From the UHGV virus genome UHGV-0223590: 10,609 bases of DNA; one strand, written 5' to 3'. Below, piece by piece: positions 1-6,297 of this stretch. The notes beneath the pieces are model-generated. The model was not told the origin of the DNA. It worked only from the letters and a program-made list of their open reading frames with translations, and did not search any database. This stretch comes from a virus. A program made the translations under genes and the position numbers. Every line of letters starts with the position of its first letter. Position 1 is the first letter of the stretch.

Positions 1-119
1 GGTGGGTGTTAGGGGCACCCACCAGCCATCTGCTCATGCGTTGGGTTCACAAGCAAACCTCAGGCCCACTGCTTTGCGCAAAAGCAGAATGAGCCTATCA
101 GAGACAGGCTTAATGATCC

Positions 120-1169
120 ATGCTTAATACTGTAAAAATATCCAGTTGTGAGTTAATCAACGCCGACTGCCTGGAATTTATCCGGTCGTTACCCGAAAAT
201 TCTGTTGACCTGATAGTCACGGACCCGCCGTACTTTAAAGTGAAGCCTGAGGGCTGGGATAACCAGTGGAAGGGCGACGATGATTACCTGAAGTGGCTGG
301 ACCAGTGTCTGGCGCAGTTCTGGCGGGTGCTGAAACCTGCCGGAAGTCTTTACCTGTTCTGTGGTCATCGCCTGGCATCTGATATCGAAATCATGATGCG
401 TGAACGCTTCAGTGTGCTGAACCATATTATCTGGGCGAAGCCGTCCGGACGCTGGAACGGATGCAACAAGGAAAGCCTGCGGGCGTATTTCCCCGCCACA
501 GAGCGCATTCTGTTCGCGGAACATTATCAGGGGCCGTATCGTCCGAAAGATGCCGGGTATGCGGCGAAGGGCAGTGCACTGAAACAGCATGTGATGGCCC
601 CGCTGATTTCTTACTTTCGTGATGCGCGCGCGGCCCTGGGGATAACGGCAAAACAGATTGCAGATGCCACAGGAAAGAAAAACATGGTGTCGCACTGGTT
701 CAGTGCCAGTCAGTGGCAGCTACCGAACGAAAGCGATTATCTGAAATTACAGTCGCTGTTTGCCCGGGTGGCAGAAGAGAAACATCAGCGCGGTGAACTG
801 GAAAAGCCCCACCACCAGCTGGTGGATACGTATACGTCACTGAACCGGCAGTATGTGGAGCTGCAGAGTGAATATAAGCATCTGCGGCGGTATTTTGGTG
901 TGACGGCGCAGGTGCCGTACACGGATGTGTGGACACATAAACCGGTGCAGTTCTATCCCGGGAAACATCCGTGCGAAAAACCGGCAGAAATGCTGCAGCA
1001 GATAATCAGCGCAAGCAGTCGTCCGGGTGACCTGGTTGCAGATTTTTTTATGGGCTCAGGTTCAACGGTAAAAGCGGCACTGGCGCTCGGGCGTCGTGCG
1101 ATTGGCGTTGAACTGGAGACCGGACGTTTTGAGCAGACAGTCAGGGAAGTTCAGGATTTAATCGTTTGA
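120..1169 (+). CDS. DNA methyltransferase, beta-class (N6-adenine or N4-cytosine), phage-type orphan
   Basis: 349-aa ORF. DPPY (motif IV) near the N-terminus in ...LIVTDPPYF..., and F-x-G-S-G-S-T (motif I, AdoMet binding) near the C-terminus in ...DFFMGSGSTV.... The IV-before-I order is typical of beta-class amino-MTases. The ORF starts right after an in-frame stop at 114-116, so 120 is the only ATG start. Confidence 0.85.
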   Translation: MLNTVKISSCELINADCLEFIRSLPENSVDLIVTDPPYFKVKPEGWDNQWKGDDDYLKWLDQCLAQFWRVLKPAGSLYLFCGHRLASDIEIMMRERFSVLNHIIWAKPSGRWNGCNKESLRAYFPATERILFAEHYQGPYRPKDAGYAAKGSALKQHVMAPLISYFRDARAALGITAKQIADATGKKNMVSHWFSASQWQLPNESDYLKLQSLFARVAEEKHQRGELEKPHHQLVDTYTSLNRQYVELQSEYKHLRRYFGVTAQVPYTDVWTHKPVQFYPGKHPCEKPAEMLQQIISASSRPGDLVADFFMGSGSTVKAALALGRRAIGVELETGRFEQTVREVQDLIV

Positions 1170-1218
1170 AACGGATGAGATTGCAGAATTAATTACGCAC
1201 CATTATTATTCTGCTCCC

Positions 1219-1294
1219 GGCCCTTTAGCTCAGTGGTGAGAGCGAGCGACTCATAATCGCCAGGTCGCTGGTTCAAATCCAGCAAGGGCCACCA
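1219..1294 (+). tRNA. ileZ: tRNA-Ile2 (anticodon CAU, ileX/ileZ-like; formally Met by anticodon alone)
   Basis: 76 nt, GGCCCTTTAGCTCAGTGGTGAGAGCGAGCGACTCATAATCGCCAGGTCGCTGGTTCAAATCCAGCAAGGGCCACCA. Cloverleaf folds by hand: 7-bp acceptor stem GGCCCTT/AAGGGCC, anticodon loop ctCATaa, T-loop TTCAAAT, encoded CCA. Closely resembles E. coli ileX as I recall it. Gene symbol is by analogy to the ileZ-argN-argO array of Stx phages. Confidence 0.85.
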
Positions 1295-1303
1295 TATCAC
1301 ATA

Positions 1304-1380
1304 CCACCATTAGCTCATCGGGATAGAGCGCCAGCCTTCGAAGCTGGTTGCGCGGGGTTCGAGTTCTCGATGGCGGTCCA
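1304..1380 (+). tRNA. tRNA-Arg (anticodon UCG)
   Basis: 77 nt. D-stem GCTC/GAGC, perfect anticodon stem CCAGC/GCTGG, anticodon loop ctTCGaa, T-loop TTCGAGT, encoded CCA. The acceptor stem has one A-C mismatch and the T-stem has G-U pairs; the 5' boundary is +/- 2 nt. Confidence 0.7.
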
Positions 1381-1394
1381 TTTATCGGTATTCT

Positions 1395-1468
1395 GCGTTG
1401 TTAGCTCAGCCGGACAGAGCAATTGCCTTCTAAGCAGCTGTGGTTGCACTCCTGTTGTTTCTGGTGGT
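1395..1468 (+). pseudogene. Degenerate tRNA-Arg(UCU)-like sequence (argU-like 5' half, broken T-arm and acceptor 3' strand)
   Basis: GCGTTGTTAGCTCAGCCGGACAGAGCAATTGCCTTCTAAGCAGC gives acceptor 5' strand, D-arm and an anticodon arm with loop ctTCTaa (anticodon UCU). Downstream there is no T-stem (GGTTGCACTCCTG instead of GGTTCGAATCC with pairing flanks) and no complement to GCGTTGT. The 3' end is approximate. Confidence 0.4.
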
Positions 1469-1614
1469 GATGGTGGACTTCAGCAGCCGGATAATGTCGG
1501 TGCTGTCTGATGGTGTTTTGGTGGCGGGTGTGTGGTTGTTGCTTTCCCGTTGCTGAAAAAGAAAGCATCAGGCGATTAGCAGGGTATCAGTTACCCGTTG
1601 AAATTTTTAAATAC

Positions 1615-1834
1615 CTCACAATTCCACAGCTTGATGATTGTCTGGCTGCCGGAGAATTTGTTAAAAATTACATCGCATGGTGAATCCCCCTCAGCGGCGG
1701 GGCATCTGGCAAAGTGTATGATCCAGAGAACATGCAAATTCAGTAGACAGGCTGAATTTACCGGGAGTCCCCTGGCACCATGCGACAGACAGAAATTAGG
1801 CTATACTTCAGCCCCTCTCCGGAGGGGCTTTTCT
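1615..1834 (+). repeat. Repeat copy A (~220 bp), ends in terminator-like hairpin
   Basis: Aligns by eye with 2083-2301 over its length. Shared blocks include TTGTCTGGC, GTTAAAAA(T)T, GCATGGTGAATCCCCCT, a CCCCT-N6-AGGGG hairpin, CACCGGGAG, GGCACCATGC and the terminal AGCCCCTCTCCGGAGGGGCT. Confidence 0.6.
1810..1834 (+). terminator. Putative intrinsic terminator (8-bp GC-rich stem, 4-nt loop, TTTCT tail)
   Basis: AGCCCCTC/TCCG/GAGGGGCT is a perfect hairpin followed by TTTCT on the + strand. There is no U-run on the opposite strand. Confidence 0.5.
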
Positions 1835-2082
1835 GTGCAGGATGTGTCACAGTTTCCTGAATTCTGAGTACTGTCCTGTTACTCAGGGTGCTATATTTTC
1901 TGACGTGATGAAAGTCTGCCGGAAGGCGGAACGTATCGGAAATGACCCAGTAGAGAAAACGTTGACTCAGATACCGATGCTGAGTTACCGGGAAACCGGC
2001 ATCACATGACCGCTATCCTTCCAGGCTCGCTCCGGCGGGCCTTTTTACTGCAGAAAACAGTTTTCCCGTAAAATGCCACGTT

Positions 2083-2301
2083 GCTCATAATTCAGGCTGG
2101 CGATTATTGTCTGGCCGGCGGGAAGTTTGTTAAAAAATTTCGCATGGTGAATCCCCCTGTGCGGAGGGGTAATCAGCGAGTAGGTATATGGGATAATCGC
2201 GGATTCAGGTGCTGGTACTGAATTCACCGGGAGGCACCCGGCACCATGCAATGGCACATAGCGCCACTCTCCAGCCCCTCTCCGGAGGGGCTGTTTATAT
2301 T
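2083..2301 (+). repeat. Repeat copy B (~220 bp), diverged copy of 1615-1834
   Basis: Same block order as copy A, with substitutions and small indels. The terminal hairpin is identical (AGCCCCTC-TCCG-GAGGGGCT). Confidence 0.6.
2273..2301 (+). terminator. Putative intrinsic terminator (same hairpin, weaker GTTTATATT tail)
   Basis: Identical 8-bp stem and loop to 1810-1829, followed by GTTTATATT. Confidence 0.35.
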
Positions 2302-2907
2302 GATTTTGTCAGATGTGAGTAAACTCCTTATGGACTTTGTTGTTTTAGCCCATAAGGACATATTTGCAGAGTGCAACGGTTATTAAAGCATTCATTCAAT
2401 ACGTTATCTGTATTTGTAGGGCATTCCTGGCTGTTTTTGATTAAATTCCAGAATGTTTTATTGAATGGTACTACGTTGTAAATGGTTACAGGTAGCACTT
2501 TGTTATTGAGCATGATGCCTGTGTGAGTCAGTGTAAATATACTTTCAGGAGGTAAGAAAGCATCCGATTGATACCAGATTATTAATTTTATTTTACTCCA
2601 TATGACTGAAAAAGATATTCCGCATGATGGCTGGATAACTGTATCAATCACAATCCACTTCATTTAGTTTCCTTGTTTATGCCTTGCTGGTGATGTTCTG
2701 AAAAGTATAAATGATATTTTTGAATTAAACCATAGAGCAGAATTATTTTTCTGATGTTGTTTATTGTTTATTTAAATGCAGGGTGGTTTATATCTCGTCT
2801 TGTAGTTTATCCATGCATATCTGCTTGATGATGAGGTTTTTATTTAAGGTATGGTTTTGTGTTTTTTCTGTATTACATGTCAGGTATTTTAAAGAATCAT
2901 TTTTCAG

Positions 2908-4401
2908 ATGGTGGAAAGAACCATGGCATTTAAACACTATGATGTTGTCAGGGCGGCGTCGCCGTCAGATCTTGCGGAAAAGCTGACACATAAACTGAAA
3001 GAGGGCTGGCAGCCGTTTGGTAGTCCGGTGGCCATAACCCCTTATACCCTGATGCAGGCGATTGCAGCAGAAGGTGATGTGGTCGTCAGTGGTGCAACTG
3101 AGCCGGAGTGGTACTACGTCATCGTACTGGCCGGGCAATCCAATGCCATGGCTTACGGTGAAGGGCTTCCGCTTCCGGATTCATACGATGCGCCCCATCC
3201 GCGCATTAAGCAACTGGCCCGTCGTAACACAGTGACTCCCGGTGGTGAAGTATGCGTATTTAACGACATCATTCCTGCTGACCATTGTCTGCATGATGTT
3301 CAGGATATGAGTACGATTAATCATCCCCGGGCTGACCTGAGCAAAGGGCAGTACGGCTGTGTCGGACAGGGCTTACATATTGCCAAAAAACTGCTTCCGT
3401 ATATCCCTAATAACGCGGGGATCCTGCTGGTACCATGCTGTCGTGGTGGTTCGGCATTCACCCAGGGCACGGAGGGGACATTCAGCGAGTCCACGGGGGC
3501 CAGTCAGGATTCGGCTCGCTGGGGAGTGGGTAAGCCGTTATATCAGGATCTGCTTTTCCGCACGAAGGCAGCATTGCAGAAAAACCCGAAAAACGTTTTG
3601 CTGGCGATATGCTGGATGCAGGGGGAATTCGATATGACGAATGCCAGTTACGCCCAGCAGCCAGCAGCATTTCTTGCAATGGTACAGCAGTTCCGTGCTG
3701 ACCTTGCCGGGCTGGCGGCGCAGTGTCACGGTGGAAGTCCGGCATCAGTCCCCTGGATTTGTGGCGACACGACATACGCGTGGAAACAAGAACACGGTAC
3801 GCAATATGAAGTGGTATATGGTGCATATAAAGGTAAAGAATCCCAGCAGATTTATTTTGTTCCCTTTATGACCGATGGTAGCGGAGTTAATACACCGACA
3901 AACAACCCGTCAGAAGATCCTGATATTGCCGGGTCTGGTTATTACGGTTCGGCATCCCGAACGAACAAAAACTGGGTATCATCAAATCGCCCGACGCATT
4001 TCAGCTCATGGGCGCGTCGTGGCATTATTCCCGATCGTATGGCAACTGCTATTCTGAACGTAGCCGGTCGCACCTTAGCCTTCATTAGTGGTAAGGCACC
4101 GGAAATCAAACCCTCGCCCGGCGGCGACACGCCATCGGGGCCGTCTGAAGATGCATCCGTACGCACAATCTCCCTGTTGCCGACAGCCGGAGATGCTGCT
4201 GCGCAGGGCTGGAGCATTAAGAATGGCGGAATTCAGTTGTCAGATGGTGTATTTAAGATCACCAAGCAGAGCAATAAAACCTGGTCCCTGATGCATCCGG
4301 TGGATGACGCAGTCTCCCTGCTGACACGGGGTGGCAGACTGAGCTGTAAGTTTCGACTGTCAGGCGCACTGACCAACAACCAGTTCGGTCTGGGAATTTA
4401 G
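2908..4401 (+). CDS. nanS-p: Prophage-encoded NanS-p-like sialate O-acetylesterase (DUF1737-like N-terminal domain + SGNH/DUF303 esterase)
   Basis: 497-aa ORF. The N-terminus (MAFKHYDVVRAASPSDLAEKLTHKLKEGWQPFGSP...) matches the small DUF1737-type domain typical of these phage proteins. An SGNH block-I-like GQSNAMAYGEG follows. Sitting downstream of the late-region tRNA array is the canonical nanS-p position in Stx/lambdoid prophages. An alternative start at ATG 2923 (MAFKHYDV) is plausible. Confidence 0.8.
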   Translation: MVERTMAFKHYDVVRAASPSDLAEKLTHKLKEGWQPFGSPVAITPYTLMQAIAAEGDVVVSGATEPEWYYVIVLAGQSNAMAYGEGLPLPDSYDAPHPRIKQLARRNTVTPGGEVCVFNDIIPADHCLHDVQDMSTINHPRADLSKGQYGCVGQGLHIAKKLLPYIPNNAGILLVPCCRGGSAFTQGTEGTFSESTGASQDSARWGVGKPLYQDLLFRTKAALQKNPKNVLLAICWMQGEFDMTNASYAQQPAAFLAMVQQFRADLAGLAAQCHGGSPASVPWICGDTTYAWKQEHGTQYEVVYGAYKGKESQQIYFVPFMTDGSGVNTPTNNPSEDPDIAGSGYYGSASRTNKNWVSSNRPTHFSSWARRGIIPDRMATAILNVAGRTLAFISGKAPEIKPSPGGDTPSGPSEDASVRTISLLPTAGDAAAQGWSIKNGGIQLSDGVFKITKQSNKTWSLMHPVDDAVSLLTRGGRLSCKFRLSGALTNNQFGLGI

Positions 4402-4667: not shown

Positions 4668-5288
4668 ATGAAAGATCAAGATGTTAGGTTCGCGGTGCAT
4701 CATAAGCTTTTGAAAGAATCGCATTTAGATCCAGACTGCCTTGTGGTCGATGAATTTTCCATATCCCTTGGCGCCAGTAGAGCAGACATTGCTGTAATAA
4801 ATGGTGTTATACACGGGTACGAGCTCAAAAGTGAATATGACTCTTTGGAGCGTTTGCCTCTTCAAATCAAGCATTATTCTTCTGTAATGGACAAGGTTAC
4901 TCTTGTCGTAGCTGAGAAACACCTTGAGGGAGCATTAAAGTTAATTCCAGGTTGGTGGGGCGTTAAAACGGTTTCTGTTGGGCCAAAAGGCGCCATTCTT
5001 ATAAAGCACATGCGTGGAGAAAAGCTTAATCGAAACCATGACACATTGATGCTCGCTCAATTGCTTTGGAAAGATGAATGTATCGACGTACTTGAACGAT
5101 GGGGCTATTCCAAAGGAATCAAAAGCAAGCCCCGATTTGAGTTATGGAATATTATTGCGGAAAATATTCCAATAGCGAATCTCAGGCTTGAAGTCAGAAC
5201 AGCCTTAAAGAAACGCGTAGGCTGGAAAGTTAAGGCTTGGCAGGCTGAGTCTGCGCCAACCAATAAAGCTGTCTCACGACTAACGTAA
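4668..5288 (+). CDS. Hypothetical protein, 206 aa, with PD-(D/E)xK-like motif arrangement (putative nuclease)
   Basis: ORF with strong SD (AAGGAG, 7-nt spacer) and an upstream TATAAT. Carries ...VVDEFSI...SRADIAVING..HGYELKSEYD..., i.e. E29, D39, E52-x-K54 spaced like a restriction-endonuclease-fold core. Lies in AT-rich DNA unlike the flanking phage genes. Confidence 0.65.
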   Translation: MKDQDVRFAVHHKLLKESHLDPDCLVVDEFSISLGASRADIAVINGVIHGYELKSEYDSLERLPLQIKHYSSVMDKVTLVVAEKHLEGALKLIPGWWGVKTVSVGPKGAILIKHMRGEKLNRNHDTLMLAQLLWKDECIDVLERWGYSKGIKSKPRFELWNIIAENIPIANLRLEVRTALKKRVGWKVKAWQAESAPTNKAVSRLT

Positions 5289-6297
5289 TATGGTGCGTAT
5301 GTGCAACTTTACGCCATTCTTTAGAGCCGCCAGATTTGTTAGCGCCTAATGATCTTTGGTAAATGTAATCATCCCCCCAACTAAATTTGGAGCCAAAGAC
5401 TTGATACTCTGGCGAACTAACAAGGGTAGTACATAAGTTTTTAGTTTGGCCCCATCCATTTCCTTTAACTGCGGTACCTTTTACAAAGATCCATGAGGTA
5501 TCGTTCGAATATCTCACTGAGACATACTGAGACATGAAGCGTGGGTCTACGCTCGTAATGGTAGAGCTAGCGGTGGGATAATCACTAAAACTTGGCGTTC
5601 TTCCATTGCTAAAATTCTGTACTACGTACATCCAAAGATCGTATTCATGGCGCGGAATATGATGAACTTGATGTTGCGGTATCCCTGCCTGTGATGCCGG
5701 GTATGCGGTTGAAGATAAAATCAAGTTTCTCCACGGAGCTTGGCCTGATAATGTGTTGACCATGCTTAATGCTTGTTGTTTTAAACTATCAGTTGCGTTT
5801 TGAATATCTCCAAAATCAATGATTACATCAATTAAACTAGGATGAATATTTAAGTGGTTAACCAGACTTGTGAATTGGTGCCATGTCTGGGGGGTGATAG
5901 ATATAGCGAGCCCATTGATTAAGTTGCGTTGAACAGCATGTATATAGTTTGTTGAATATGCGGGAGAAACAACAGGGATAATTTCCTTACCATTTACTCT
6001 AGCATCTTGGATACACATATCTAGAGGATGATGGCGGCTCGAACCATGTTTATCTAAATATTTAACATCCAGCAAAACAGGACGATTGGCTTTCCAGGAT
6101 GCCGCAAGGTTAATACCGAAGTCAGATAAGTAAGAACTCAAACTCTTCTTGTAGCATTCGTTTTCATAATCCCAGTCTATGTCTGGAATGGTAATGATCG
6201 GAGTAAAACCAGAGAGCGTAGTTTGATCTAAAAGCATCAGAGATTCATATTCAGCAGGCTTCCATTTCAGCTGTGGATAATATTGATGTTGACTCAT
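5230..6297 (-). CDS. Hypothetical protein, 355 aa, partner of the 206-aa gene (convergent, 59-bp 3' overlap)
   Basis: Long minus-strand ORF with a strong SD (AAGGAG, 6 nt before ATG, seen as CTCCTT at 6303-6308 on +). AT-rich like its partner. No catalytic motif I can assign by eye. Confidence 0.65.
   Translation of the reverse strand: MSQHQYYPQLKWKPAEYESLMLLDQTTLSGFTPIITIPDIDWDYENECYKKSLSSYLSDFGINLAASWKANRPVLLDVKYLDKHGSSRHHPLDMCIQDARVNGKEIIPVVSPAYSTNYIHAVQRNLINGLAISITPQTWHQFTSLVNHLNIHPSLIDVIIDFGDIQNATDSLKQQALSMVNTLSGQAPWRNLILSSTAYPASQAGIPQHQVHHIPRHEYDLWMYVVQNFSNGRTPSFSDYPTASSTITSVDPRFMSQYVSVRYSNDTSWIFVKGTAVKGNGWGQTKNLCTTLVSSPEYQVFGSKFSWGDDYIYQRSLGANKSGGSKEWRKVAHTHHITLVVRQLYWLAQTQPAKP

What the first reader, a model, noticed from the sequence alone, without database searches (positions are those of the whole stretch)
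1219..2907. Stx-phage-like late region (MTase, tRNA array, nanS-p) with no toxin genes in the stx position
In Stx-converting phages the ileZ-argN-argO tRNA array is immediately followed by stxAB and then nanS-p. Here the interval between the tRNAs and nanS-p has no long ORF. It holds two repeat/terminator units and an AT-rich tract, so the backbone is the toxin-phage type but the toxin locus is empty or replaced.
Basis: partly seen in the sequence, partly recalled or inferred. Interest (0 to 1): 0.5.

Follow-up and report, generated by a model that had tools for sequence, protein, structure and literature searches.

The report
Toxin-free prophage cargo site carrying iraL
This is the prophage cargo site where Shiga-toxin phages carry stxAB, but here it has no toxin and is not empty: it holds two tRNA genes, three STnc100-type small-RNA units and iraL, a known stress-response regulator gene, in an arrangement found in many non-toxigenic E. 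coli.

Summary
A DNA methyltransferase gene (120-1169), ileZ and argN (1219-1380) and a nanS-p-type esterase gene (from 2908) are present, and there is no stx. Three details are wrong. argO is only a 5' half, ending at 1436. The "repeat/terminator units" are STnc100-family small-RNA genes: two strong Rfam matches and a weak third. The AT-rich tract holds a 111-codon minus-strand gene whose product is identical to IraL of E. coli CFT073, an experimentally characterised RssB anti-adaptor that stabilises RpoS.

The flanks are the ones that bracket stx2. Stx2c phage 1717 reads tRNAs, stx2AB, STnc100, an iraM-like gene on the minus strand, nanS-p. In Stx2 phages stxAB sits between the terminator after argO and STnc100. 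The window has that same junction (2023-2113) with a roughly 40-nt spacer, as in the stx-free phage phi296. No stx remnant was found.

The interval is present in 1006 of 5426 complete E. coli genomes. It is an ordinary toxin-free version of the late-region cargo ("moron") site of lambda-like prophages, and its parts are already known. The prophage is defective: the nanS-p 3' end, the lysis genes and most head and tail genes are deleted.

The parts
120..1169 (+). N6/N4 DNA methyltransferase gene, full length (349 aa). 933W and F765 keep only its last ~100 nt.
   Evidence: Pfam PF01555, E 2e-44. PADLOC MTase_II, E 4e-167. Homology with 933W and F765 starts only at window 1068.
1181..1209 (+). 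Putative tRNA promoter pT (TTGCAG, 17 nt, TATTAT). Assigned by homology only.
   Evidence: Aligns with the feature annotated in 933W as 'pT; putative tRNA promoter'. Not tested here.
1219..1294 (+). tRNA with anticodon CAT (ileZ type), intact.
   Evidence: ARAGORN. Rfam tRNA, 72.5 bits. No differences from Stx2a F765 or phi296 within the gene in the alignment.
1304..1380 (+). tRNA-Arg with anticodon TCG (argN type), intact.
   Evidence: ARAGORN. Rfam tRNA, 44.9 bits.
1395..1436 (+). argO (tRNA-Arg, anticodon TCT), 5' half only. The gene breaks off just after the anticodon loop.
   Evidence: Alignment with 933W, F765, phi296 and CFT073. Homology with Stx phages ends at 1436. Not called by ARAGORN.
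1437..1556 (+). tciB (DUF3927) remnant joined directly to the broken argO. The first 6 codons are lost and the C-terminus is frameshifted.
   Evidence: Pfam DUF3927, 42.6 bits, matching profile positions 11-39 of 53. 84% nucleotide identity to phage JLK-2012 tciB and the sequence downstream of it. Protein comparison.
1645..1838 (+). STnc100-family sRNA unit A with an intrinsic terminator at 1810-1829.
   Evidence: Rfam RF02076, 132.9 bits, E 9e-30. Forms 35 of 35 consensus pairs. Terminator scan.
1874..2049 (+). Divergent STnc100-like unit B. Its terminator (2023-2042) resembles the terminator that follows argO in Stx2 phages and phi296.
   Evidence: Rfam RF02076, 30 bits, below the gathering score of 47, E 0.002. 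Forms 26 of 35 consensus pairs, 7 of them through changes on both sides. Terminator similarity.
2047..2088 (+). Spacer at the exact point where stxAB sits in Stx2 phages. It is unoccupied here, as in phi296.
   Evidence: Alignments of the argO-end and stxB-end junctions. Window 2021-2292 is collinear with phi296 L003 4379-4666.
2114..2302 (+). STnc100-family sRNA unit C with an intrinsic terminator at 2272-2293, convergent with iraL.
   Evidence: Rfam RF02076, 132.5 bits, E 1e-29. Forms 35 of 35 pairs. Lies within a stretch (window 2085-3142) that is 97% identical to CFT073.
2328..2663 (-). iraL, the RssB anti-adaptor gene that stabilises RpoS.
   Evidence: NCBIfam NF007393 (anti-adapter protein IraM subfamily), 162 bits against a cut-off of 121. 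112 of 112 codons identical to CFT073 WP_000871291.1. IraL function is shown in PMC4045071.
2664..2730 (-). iraL 5' UTR and promoter. The transcription start is inferred at 2696 and the TATACT/TACTTT -10 region at 2702-2709. The predicted -35 (TTTACA in CFT073) lacks its C here.
   Evidence: The published 5'-RACE sequence matches window 2696 to 2665 at 31 of 32 positions. Promoter comparison with CFT073, JKHS016, the metagenome contig L012 and phage 640R1.
2908..4401 (+). nanS-p-type esterase gene (DUF1737 plus SASA), truncated at its 3' end by a deletion that also removed the lysis cassette.
   Evidence: Pfam. The closest relative has 618 aa followed by holin, DUF1327, lysozyme and Rz genes, and window 4398 joins to L004 14557.

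Best explanation
Window 1219-2907 is the cargo ("moron") site of the late operon of a lambda-like prophage. This is the stretch between the Q-dependent late promoter region and the nanS-p and lysis genes, and it is where Stx phages carry stxAB.

In this prophage the site holds a mosaic of other self-contained modules:
- a tRNA cassette (ileZ, argN and a broken argO);
- a tciB remnant followed by STnc100-type unit A, as in JLK-2012-type phages;
- a divergent unit B;
- the terminator, spacer and STnc100 unit C arrangement seen in stx-free phages;
- iraL on the minus strand, convergent with unit C, directly upstream of nanS-p.

Shown here: the identity and position of each part, the absence of stx, and collinearity with Stx-phage flanks.

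Inferred from published work on homologues: these modules have their own promoters and terminators and are expressed from the repressed prophage. The tRNAs would decode rare codons. The STnc100-family RNAs would act as Hfq-associated small RNAs. IraL binds RssB and so protects RpoS from ClpXP. After induction, Q-modified polymerase would read through the terminators into nanS-p and the lysis genes.

The prophage here is defective, so only the lysogen-expressed functions could matter. The mosaic most likely arose by recombination between related prophages carrying different cargo at this site, not by loss of a toxin operon.
For: - tRNAs.
- STnc100 units at 133 and 132 bits, each forming 35 of 35 consensus pairs.
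- IraL is 100% identical to the CFT073 protein, and its 5' UTR matches the published 5'-RACE sequence at 31 of 32 positions.
- The argO-to-tciB junction.
- Layouts of Stx2a, Stx2c, Stx2k and Stx1 phages and the stx-free phage phi296.
- Collinearity with phage 1717 from STnc100 through nanS-p.
- Empty-site junction alignments.
- No stx remnant.
- The interval is present in 1006 of 5426 complete genomes, and CFT073 has the same locus type in its potB prophage.
- Literature: the cargo site 3' of the late promoter PR' carrying convergent sRNAs (PMC4045071 is the IraL paper; the site is described in PMC4104026); STnc100 located downstream of stx2 (PMC12370729); the STnc100/PasD relationship and its link to the esterase gene (bioRxiv 10.64898/2026.05.13.724894); IraL function (PMC4045071).
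Against: - No expression data exist for this locus.
- The simple sigma-70 scan found no convincing + strand promoter for the STnc100 units.
- The window's iraL promoter lacks one base in the predicted -35 hexamer, which may weaken it.
- Unit B is below the Rfam gathering score.
- The direction of evolution, never having had stx versus having lost it long ago, cannot be proved from sequence comparison alone.
Confidence: 0.85

Rival explanations
1. The prophage was once an Stx-converting phage. The toxin operon was deleted or replaced, leaving the flanks behind.
For: The flanks are shared with stx loci: the tRNA array is 89-94% identical to Stx2 phages up to the middle of argO, and STnc100, an iraM-type gene and nanS-p follow as in Stx2c phage 1717. 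argO is broken close to where the stx cassette would begin, so a rearrangement did occur there. The Pas sRNA preprint raises repeated stx loss in bacterial genomes as one possibility.
Against: No stx remnant was found at protein or DNA level. The true insertion point (2047-2088) carries a spacer homologous to that of the stx-free phage phi296, and Stx phages lack that spacer. The sequence that replaces the argO 3' half is tciB plus STnc100 from a JLK-2012-type module, not stx-flanking sequence. The right flank is only about 68-75% identical to Stx2c phages. The same interval is in 1006 complete genomes, including CFT073 and ST131 strains. No Stx phage in the phage collection carries the iraL allele.
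Confidence: 0.06
2. The interval is decaying sequence in a dead prophage. The sRNA-like units and iraL are relics that are no longer expressed or useful.
For: The prophage is clearly defective: argO is broken, tciB is a remnant, nanS-p is truncated, the lysis cassette is deleted and the portal gene is fused to tail-fibre sequence. The window has a one-base deletion in the predicted iraL -35 element.
Against: IraL is intact and identical to the functional CFT073 protein. Units A and C keep all 35 consensus base pairs, some through compensatory changes. The interval is held at 99% identity or more in 465 complete-genome records.
Confidence: 0.1
3. The three STnc100-like units act mainly in cis. 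As a series of structured terminators they would insulate nanS-p and the lysis genes from upstream constitutive transcription (for example from the tRNA promoter) until Q antitermination. They would not act as trans-acting small RNAs.
For: Each unit ends in a strong intrinsic terminator. The units always lie in the late transcript just upstream of nanS-p in every phage examined that has nanS-p. No clear promoter of their own was found. No trans target of STnc100 came up in the papers read.
Against: A transcript corresponding by position to the Stx2-phage copy was detected as an Hfq-crosslinked sRNA convergent with AsxR (PMC4104026; the match to STnc100 is my inference from position). STnc100 was also detected by RT-PCR in vesicle preparations (PMC12370729). 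The related PasD is an abundant Hfq-bound sRNA with RIL-seq partners. A plain terminator would not need a conserved 35-pair structure. The two roles are not mutually exclusive.
Confidence: 0.15

Closest known systems
iraL locus of the potB prophage of uropathogenic E. coli CFT073 (Hryckowian et al. 2014, PMC4045071)
   Same: Order Q, ileZ-argN-argO, DUF3927/tciB, STnc100, iraL(-), nanS-p-type gene. The IraL protein is identical. Window 2085-3142 is 97% identical to CFT073. The 5' UTR matches at 31 of 32 positions.
   Different: CFT073 has an intact argO, about 500 bp of other sequence before tciB, and a single STnc100 copy. The window has a broken argO fused to a JLK-2012-type tciB remnant, plus two extra STnc100-type units (A and B). 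It also lacks one base in the predicted -35 element. nanS-p is truncated at different points in the two.
stx2c and stx2k loci of Stx2-converting phages 1717, 2851 and phiSTEC1575-Stx2k
   Same: tRNA array, then STnc100(+) convergent with an iraM-family gene(-); nanS-p follows in 1717. Phage 1717 is collinear with window 2126-4056.
   Different: These phages carry stx2AB between the argO terminator and STnc100; the window does not. Their anti-adaptor is a third allele, 72% identical in protein to IraL and 65% to K-12 IraM. Nucleotide identity to the window is only about 68-75%.
stx2a locus of phage 933W and Sp5-type phages
   Same: pT promoter, ileZ-argN-argO, terminator, then STnc100 and nanS-p. 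91% identical to window 1068-1436.
   Different: stx2AB is present. The minus-strand partner of STnc100 is the 53-nt anti-sRNA AsxR rather than iraL. The methyltransferase gene is reduced to a ~100-nt remnant. The phage is a podovirus with different morphogenesis genes.
stx-free relatives of Stx phages (vB_EcoP_phi296, TL-2011a, PPwrbA prophages)
   Same: The tRNA array and terminator are followed directly by a short spacer and STnc100, with no toxin. This is the same empty-site junction as window 2021-2292.
   Different: These phages have an intact argO, a single STnc100, no iraL and no tciB remnant.
tciA-tciB-STnc100/PasD-esterase modules of phage JLK-2012 and phage 2B8
   Same: tciB (DUF3927) is followed by an STnc100-family RNA just upstream of the esterase gene. 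Window 1437-1783 is 84% identical to JLK-2012.
   Different: Those phages have a complete tciA-tciB pair and different tRNAs or none. In the window only a tciB fragment survives, fused to argO.

Membership tests
Shiga toxin (stx) locus of an Stx-converting prophage | stxA and stxB genes present | tested here: not met
   tblastn with Stx2 A and B gave a best E-value of 1.6. blastn-short with the 1.4-kb stx2 cassette gave only chance-level matches.
Shiga toxin (stx) locus of an Stx-converting prophage | Flanking context: tRNA array upstream, STnc100 and nanS-p downstream | tested here: met
   Comparisons with 933W, F765, 1717 and the Stx2k phage. This context is not specific to Stx phages: it occurs in CFT073 and at least 80% of the interval is in 1006 of 5426 complete genomes.
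STnc100 sRNA (Rfam RF02076) | Covariance-model score at or above the gathering score of 47 bits | tested here: met
   Units A (132.9 bits) and C (132.5 bits) pass. Unit B (30 bits) does not.
STnc100 sRNA (Rfam RF02076) | Conserved secondary structure: a long-range helix enclosing hairpins, followed by a terminator | tested here: met
   Units A and C form 35 of 35 consensus pairs. Unit B forms 26 of 35, 7 of them through changes on both sides. The test used an 8-sequence alignment.
STnc100 sRNA (Rfam RF02076) | Expressed as a discrete, Hfq-associated transcript | not testable with these tools
   Known only for homologues (PMC4104026, PMC12370729). No clear promoter was found by the consensus scan.
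IraM/IraL family of RssB anti-adaptors | Sequence membership (NCBIfam NF007393 above its cut-off) | tested here: met
   162 bits against a cut-off of 121, covering residues 1-110.
IraM/IraL family of RssB anti-adaptors | Identity with the experimentally characterised IraL of CFT073 | tested here: met
   112 of 112 codons identical. 59.5% identical to K-12 IraM, in line with the published 58.9%.
IraM/IraL family of RssB anti-adaptors | Native sigma-70 promoter and 5' UTR as mapped in CFT073 | tested here: inconclusive
   The 5' UTR matches at 31 of 32 positions and the -10 region is identical, but the predicted -35 TTTACA has lost its C in the window.
IraM/IraL family of RssB anti-adaptors | Binds RssB and stabilises RpoS | not testable with these tools
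   Shown for the identical CFT073 protein in PMC4045071.
ileZ-argN-argO tRNA array of lambda-like phages | Three intact tRNA genes | tested here: not met
   ileZ and argN are intact. argO ends at 1436 after the anticodon loop.
NanS-p sialate O-acetylesterase (DUF1737 plus SASA) | Both domains present in a full-length protein (about 618-645 aa) | tested here: not met
   The ORF stops at 497 aa at a deletion junction, against 618 aa in JKHS016 and 645 aa in 933W. DUF1737 is complete. The SASA match covers profile positions 4-157 of 226 at residues 71-267, which lie upstream of the truncation point.
TciB / DUF3927 | Complete small membrane protein (about 43-54 aa) with its own start codon | tested here: not met
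   The Pfam hit is 42.6 bits but covers only profile positions 11-39. The first 6 codons are replaced by argO sequence and the C-terminus is frameshifted relative to JLK-2012.

The most novel reading that the evidence does not exclude
STnc100(+) paired with a convergent minus-strand partner, just upstream of nanS-p, may be one conserved functional unit. The partner is interchangeable: AsxR in Stx2a phages, an AgvB-like RNA in an Stx1 phage, an iraM-like gene in Stx2c and Stx2k phages, and iraL here. In this reading, convergent transcription or antisense pairing between the iraL 3' end and STnc100 unit C (only 25 nt separate them, and iraL has no canonical terminator of its own) would couple anti-adaptor output to sRNA output. 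The three tandem STnc100-type units, which differ in their variable regions, would form an sRNA array with distinct targets. I did not find such a link between an RpoS-stabilising protein and a prophage sRNA, or such a tandem array, described in the papers I read.
Probability: 0.12. Interest if true: 0.45.

Novelty: already known. Interest (0 to 1): 0.2.

Why it matters
The result explains an apparent "empty toxin locus" as something ordinary. The late-region cargo site of lambda-like prophages takes interchangeable cargo, and Shiga toxin is only one option. Here the cargo is a stress-response regulator (IraL), small RNAs and tRNAs, as in uropathogenic and many other E. coli. This is a caution for genome screening: Stx-type flanks (tRNA array, STnc100, nanS-p) do not indicate a former or potential toxin phage.

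One modest point may deserve follow-up. IraL, its IraM-like relatives and the anti-sRNAs AsxR and AgvB all occupy the same minus-strand position opposite STnc100. That points to a common recombination framework for host-regulating cargo.

Tried and rejected
- **stx remnants.** tblastn with Stx2 A and B and blastn-short with the whole stx2 cassette found nothing beyond a 26-nt terminator resemblance.
- **AsxR or AgvB anti-sRNAs in the window.** The Rfam scan at E up to 1 found none. In this locus iraL occupies that position.
- **Short + strand ORFs as genes.** ORFs overlapping the repeat units (1510-1683, 1598-1867, 1842-2009, 2246-2386), the minus-strand ORF 2045-2257 and ORF 2783-2986 have no Pfam hit and overlap the sRNA units or the iraL/nanS-p regions. 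They were rejected as coding.
- **Unit B as PasD.** PasD of phage 2B8 lies in the equivalent position and also scores below threshold against STnc100 (38 bits), but it shows no BLAST similarity to unit B. Unit B is therefore a separate divergent member.
- **Promoters for the STnc100 units.** The consensus scan gave only minus-strand, chance-level sites, so no promoter is claimed.
- **Source genome.** The deletion junctions at about 4400 and about 9882 are not contiguous in any of 5426 complete E. coli genomes. They are also absent from the species-representative genome collection. The exact truncated NanS-p product is on one short metagenome contig only. The host strain is therefore unidentified.
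- **Defence-system membership of IraL.** The PADLOC search gave no hit.
Full report
**What is in the window.** The 10.6-kb window is the late region of a defective lambda-like prophage of E. coli. From left to right it contains:
- a full-length N6/N4 DNA methyltransferase gene at 120-1169;
- two intact tRNA genes, at 1219-1294 (anticodon CAT, ileZ type) and 1304-1380 (anticodon TCG, argN type);
- the interval discussed below;
- a DUF1737 plus SASA (nanS-p-type) esterase gene starting at 2908;
- an sce7726-family gene and a Beta-protein gene;
- lambda-type Nu1, gpA and W genes and a portal gene fragment, which runs into tail-tip (gpJ) sequence.

The closest complete genome is E. coli JKHS016, 99.2% identical over window 1-4400. 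Compared with it, the window has lost the 3' end of nanS-p and the holin, DUF1327, lysozyme and Rz genes. Window position 4398 joins to L004 position 14557.

**Checking the observation.** The methyltransferase gene, ileZ, argN and nanS-p are real, and no toxin gene is present. tblastn with Stx2 A and B gave a best E-value of 1.6. A sensitive blastn with the whole 1.4-kb stx2 cassette gave only chance-level short matches. The AT-rich tract is real: 31-39% GC over about 2250-3000 against 50-56% in the flanks. The repeats are real: segments of 30-35 nt recur about 467 nt apart, and there are three related terminator hairpins at 1806-1832, 2019-2045 and 2269-2295.

Three details need correction:
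- argO is not intact. It matches the argO of 933W, F765, phi296 and CFT073 only through the anticodon loop, then breaks at 1436. ARAGORN does not call it.
- The repeat units are small-RNA genes (see below).
- The AT-rich tract is not free of ORFs (see below).

**The repeat units.** An Rfam scan identifies 1645-1838 (132.9 bits, E 9e-30) and 2114-2302 (132.5 bits, E 1e-29) as STnc100 (RF02076, gathering score 47). A third, weak match lies at 1874-2049 (30 bits, E 0.002). I aligned these units with STnc100 copies from five phages and derived a consensus structure. Units A and C form all 35 consensus base pairs. Unit B forms 26 of 35, seven of them through changes on both sides. Unit B is therefore a divergent family member rather than a chance match. 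This resembles PasD of phage 2B8, which sits in the equivalent position and scores 38 bits. A 2026 preprint groups PasD with STnc100. Units A and C are only about 73% identical to each other, judged from each unit's match to the other copy in near-identical relatives. They are therefore not a recent tandem duplication.

**The AT-rich tract.** The minus strand carries a 111-codon ORF at 2328-2663. It scores 162 bits against NCBIfam NF007393, the IraM anti-adaptor subfamily, where the cut-off is 121. It is identical at 112 of 112 codons, stop codon included, to protein WP_000871291.1 of E. coli CFT073. That protein lies in the potB prophage of CFT073 and is IraL. IraL was shown experimentally to bind RssB and to stabilise RpoS during logarithmic growth (PMC4045071).

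The published 5'-RACE sequence of the iraL mRNA matches the window's minus strand from 2696 to 2665 at 31 of 32 positions. This places the transcription start at about 2696. The -10 region is identical to that of CFT073. The predicted -35 hexamer, TTTACA in CFT073, JKHS016 and the metagenome contig L012, has lost its C in the window. Phage 640R1 has TTTATA at the same place. Whether iraL is still transcribed in this genome is therefore uncertain.

**The rest of the interval.** Directly after the argO break, window 1437-1783 is 84% identical to tciB (DUF3927) and the sequence downstream of it in phage JLK-2012. The surviving tciB piece (1440-1556) hits Pfam DUF3927 at profile positions 11-39 of 53. 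It has lost its first six codons and is frameshifted at its C-terminus. No useful microhomology is visible at the junction.

**Comparison with stx loci.** I fetched and scanned representative phages. In this list, (+) and (-) give the strand.
- **933W and F765 (Stx2a):** pT promoter, ileZ-argN-argO, terminator, stx2AB, STnc100(+), AsxR(-), nanS-p.
- **1717 (Stx2c) and phiSTEC1575 (Stx2k):** tRNA array, stx2AB, STnc100(+), iraM-like gene(-), then nanS-p in 1717 or a holin gene in the Stx2k phage.
- **YYZ-2008 (Stx1):** Q, stx1AB, STnc100(+), AgvB-like(-), nanS-p.
- **phi296 (no stx):** tRNA array, terminator, short spacer, STnc100, nanS-p.

The window matches Stx2 phages at 89-94% identity from the methyltransferase 3' end or the tRNA promoter region to the middle of argO. 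From STnc100 unit C through iraL and nanS-p it is collinear with phage 1717, at 68% identity over window 2126-4056.

**The exact insertion point.** In Stx2 phages the stx cassette lies between the terminator that follows argO and a conserved TCACAATTCAG box upstream of STnc100. The window has a closely related terminator at 2023-2046. A roughly 40-nt spacer (2047-2088) follows it, and then that box and unit C. This is the same arrangement as in the stx-free phi296. Window 2021-2292 aligns with L003 4379-4666 at 74% identity, and Stx phages lack this spacer. The strict stx site is therefore unoccupied and looks like an alternative allele, not a deletion scar. The extra material (the tciB remnant, unit A and unit B) sits between the broken argO and that terminator.

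**Distribution.**
- At least 80% of window 1390-2920 is present in 1006 of 5426 complete E. coli genomes, with 465 records at 99% identity or more.
- ST131 strains and CFT073 carry a variant with an intact argO and one STnc100 copy.
- Among 50,697 phage records, only four non-Stx phages carry the iraL segment at 95% identity or more. The Stx2c, Stx2k and some Stx2a phages carry a different allele at about 75% nucleotide identity.
- At protein level that allele is 72% identical to IraL and 65% to K-12 IraM.

The interval is thus a common, toxin-free version of this site.

**How it most likely works.** The parts and their order are shown directly. The mechanism is inferred from homologues. The region 3' of the Q-dependent late promoter of lambda-like prophages tolerates inserted cargo with its own promoters and terminators. 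In EHEC prophages it carries convergent sRNA pairs (PMC4104026). AsxR lies 282 bp 3' of stx2B in that paper, which is exactly the position found in 933W. The + strand partner described there therefore corresponds by position to the STnc100 copy; this assignment is my inference.

In a lysogen the tRNAs, the STnc100-type RNAs and iraL would be expressed independently. IraL would raise RpoS levels by blocking RssB. After induction, Q-modified polymerase would read through the three terminators into nanS-p and the lysis genes. In this genome the lysis and morphogenesis genes are gone, so only the lysogen-expressed functions remain possible. The simple consensus scan found no convincing promoter for the STnc100 units. 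A mainly cis-acting role as terminators therefore cannot be excluded.

**Rivals.**
- **Loss of a former toxin operon is unlikely.** There is no stx remnant, the junction is of the empty-site type, similarity to Stx phages on the right flank is low, and the locus is widespread in genomes such as CFT073 and ST131 strains.
- **Pure decay is unlikely for iraL and for units A and C.** The IraL protein is identical to the functional one, and all base pairs of the two units are conserved. Decay is clearly true for argO, tciB and nanS-p.

**Novelty.** Every component is already described or annotated:
- iraL (PMC4045071);
- STnc100 downstream of stx2 (PMC12370729) and its relationship to PasD and the esterase gene (bioRxiv 10.64898/2026.05.13.724894);
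- the cargo site with convergent sRNAs (PMC4104026);
- stx-free relatives of Stx phages in the phage collection.

I did not see two things stated in the papers I read. One is that iraL, the iraM-like genes, AsxR and AgvB occupy the same minus-strand position opposite STnc100. The other is that this allele carries three tandem STnc100-type units. Both points are modest. My verdict is that this is an ordinary, already known kind of locus.

Noticed in passing
window 4398-4401: A deletion junction truncates nanS-p at 497 aa and removes the holin, DUF1327, lysozyme and Rz genes that JKHS016 has at L004 12305-14557. The junction is not contiguous in any of 5426 complete E. coli genomes and is absent from the species-representative genomes. 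The exact truncated protein occurs on one ENA metagenome contig only.
   Followed up: partly
window 4668-6297: An sce7726-family gene (4668-5288, +) and a convergent Beta-protein gene (5230-6297, -) lie between the former lysis cassette and the terminase genes. Both hit PADLOC models: 'cll' at E 4e-31, and PD-Lambda-2_C at E 4e-32 plus 'beta'. They may be anti-phage defence cargo.
   Followed up: partly
window about 9882: The portal gene (from 9343) runs into sequence 99% identical to the C-terminal part of tail-tip protein gpJ, so most head and tail genes are deleted. This junction is also not found in complete E. coli genomes.
   Followed up: partly
window 2725-2729, minus strand: One base is missing from the predicted iraL -35 hexamer (TTTACA in CFT073, JKHS016 and the metagenome contig L012; TTTATA in phage 640R1). 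It could be a private mutation or a sequencing error, and it may reduce iraL transcription.
   Followed up: partly
window 1436/1437: The argO 5' half is fused to codon 7 of a JLK-2012-type tciB with no obvious microhomology. RefSeq (PGAP) annotation of near-identical genomes calls the 38-aa remnant a DUF3927 family protein.
   Followed up: yes
L010 5985-6037; L011 6417-6476; L005 5003-5326; L006 5003-5326; window 2328-2663: The minus-strand element convergent with STnc100 differs among phages: AsxR (933W), AgvB-like (Stx1 phage YYZ-2008), an iraM-like gene (Stx2c phage 1717 and the Stx2k phage) and iraL (window, CFT073). This suggests an exchangeable position.
   Followed up: partly
window 1068-1169 against L010 3970-4078 and L002 6468 onward: 933W-type Stx2a phages keep only the last ~100 nt of the methyltransferase gene upstream of the tRNA promoter. 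The window has the full 349-aa gene, so in this respect the Stx2a arrangement is the deleted one.
   Followed up: no
L009 7681-8004 (E. coli K-12 iraM): K-12 iraM lies just outside the annotated e14 boundary, next to ycgX (DUF1398, a prophage-type gene). It matches window 2344-2665 at 71% nucleotide identity. This fits an origin of iraM from the same kind of prophage late-region position.
   Followed up: no
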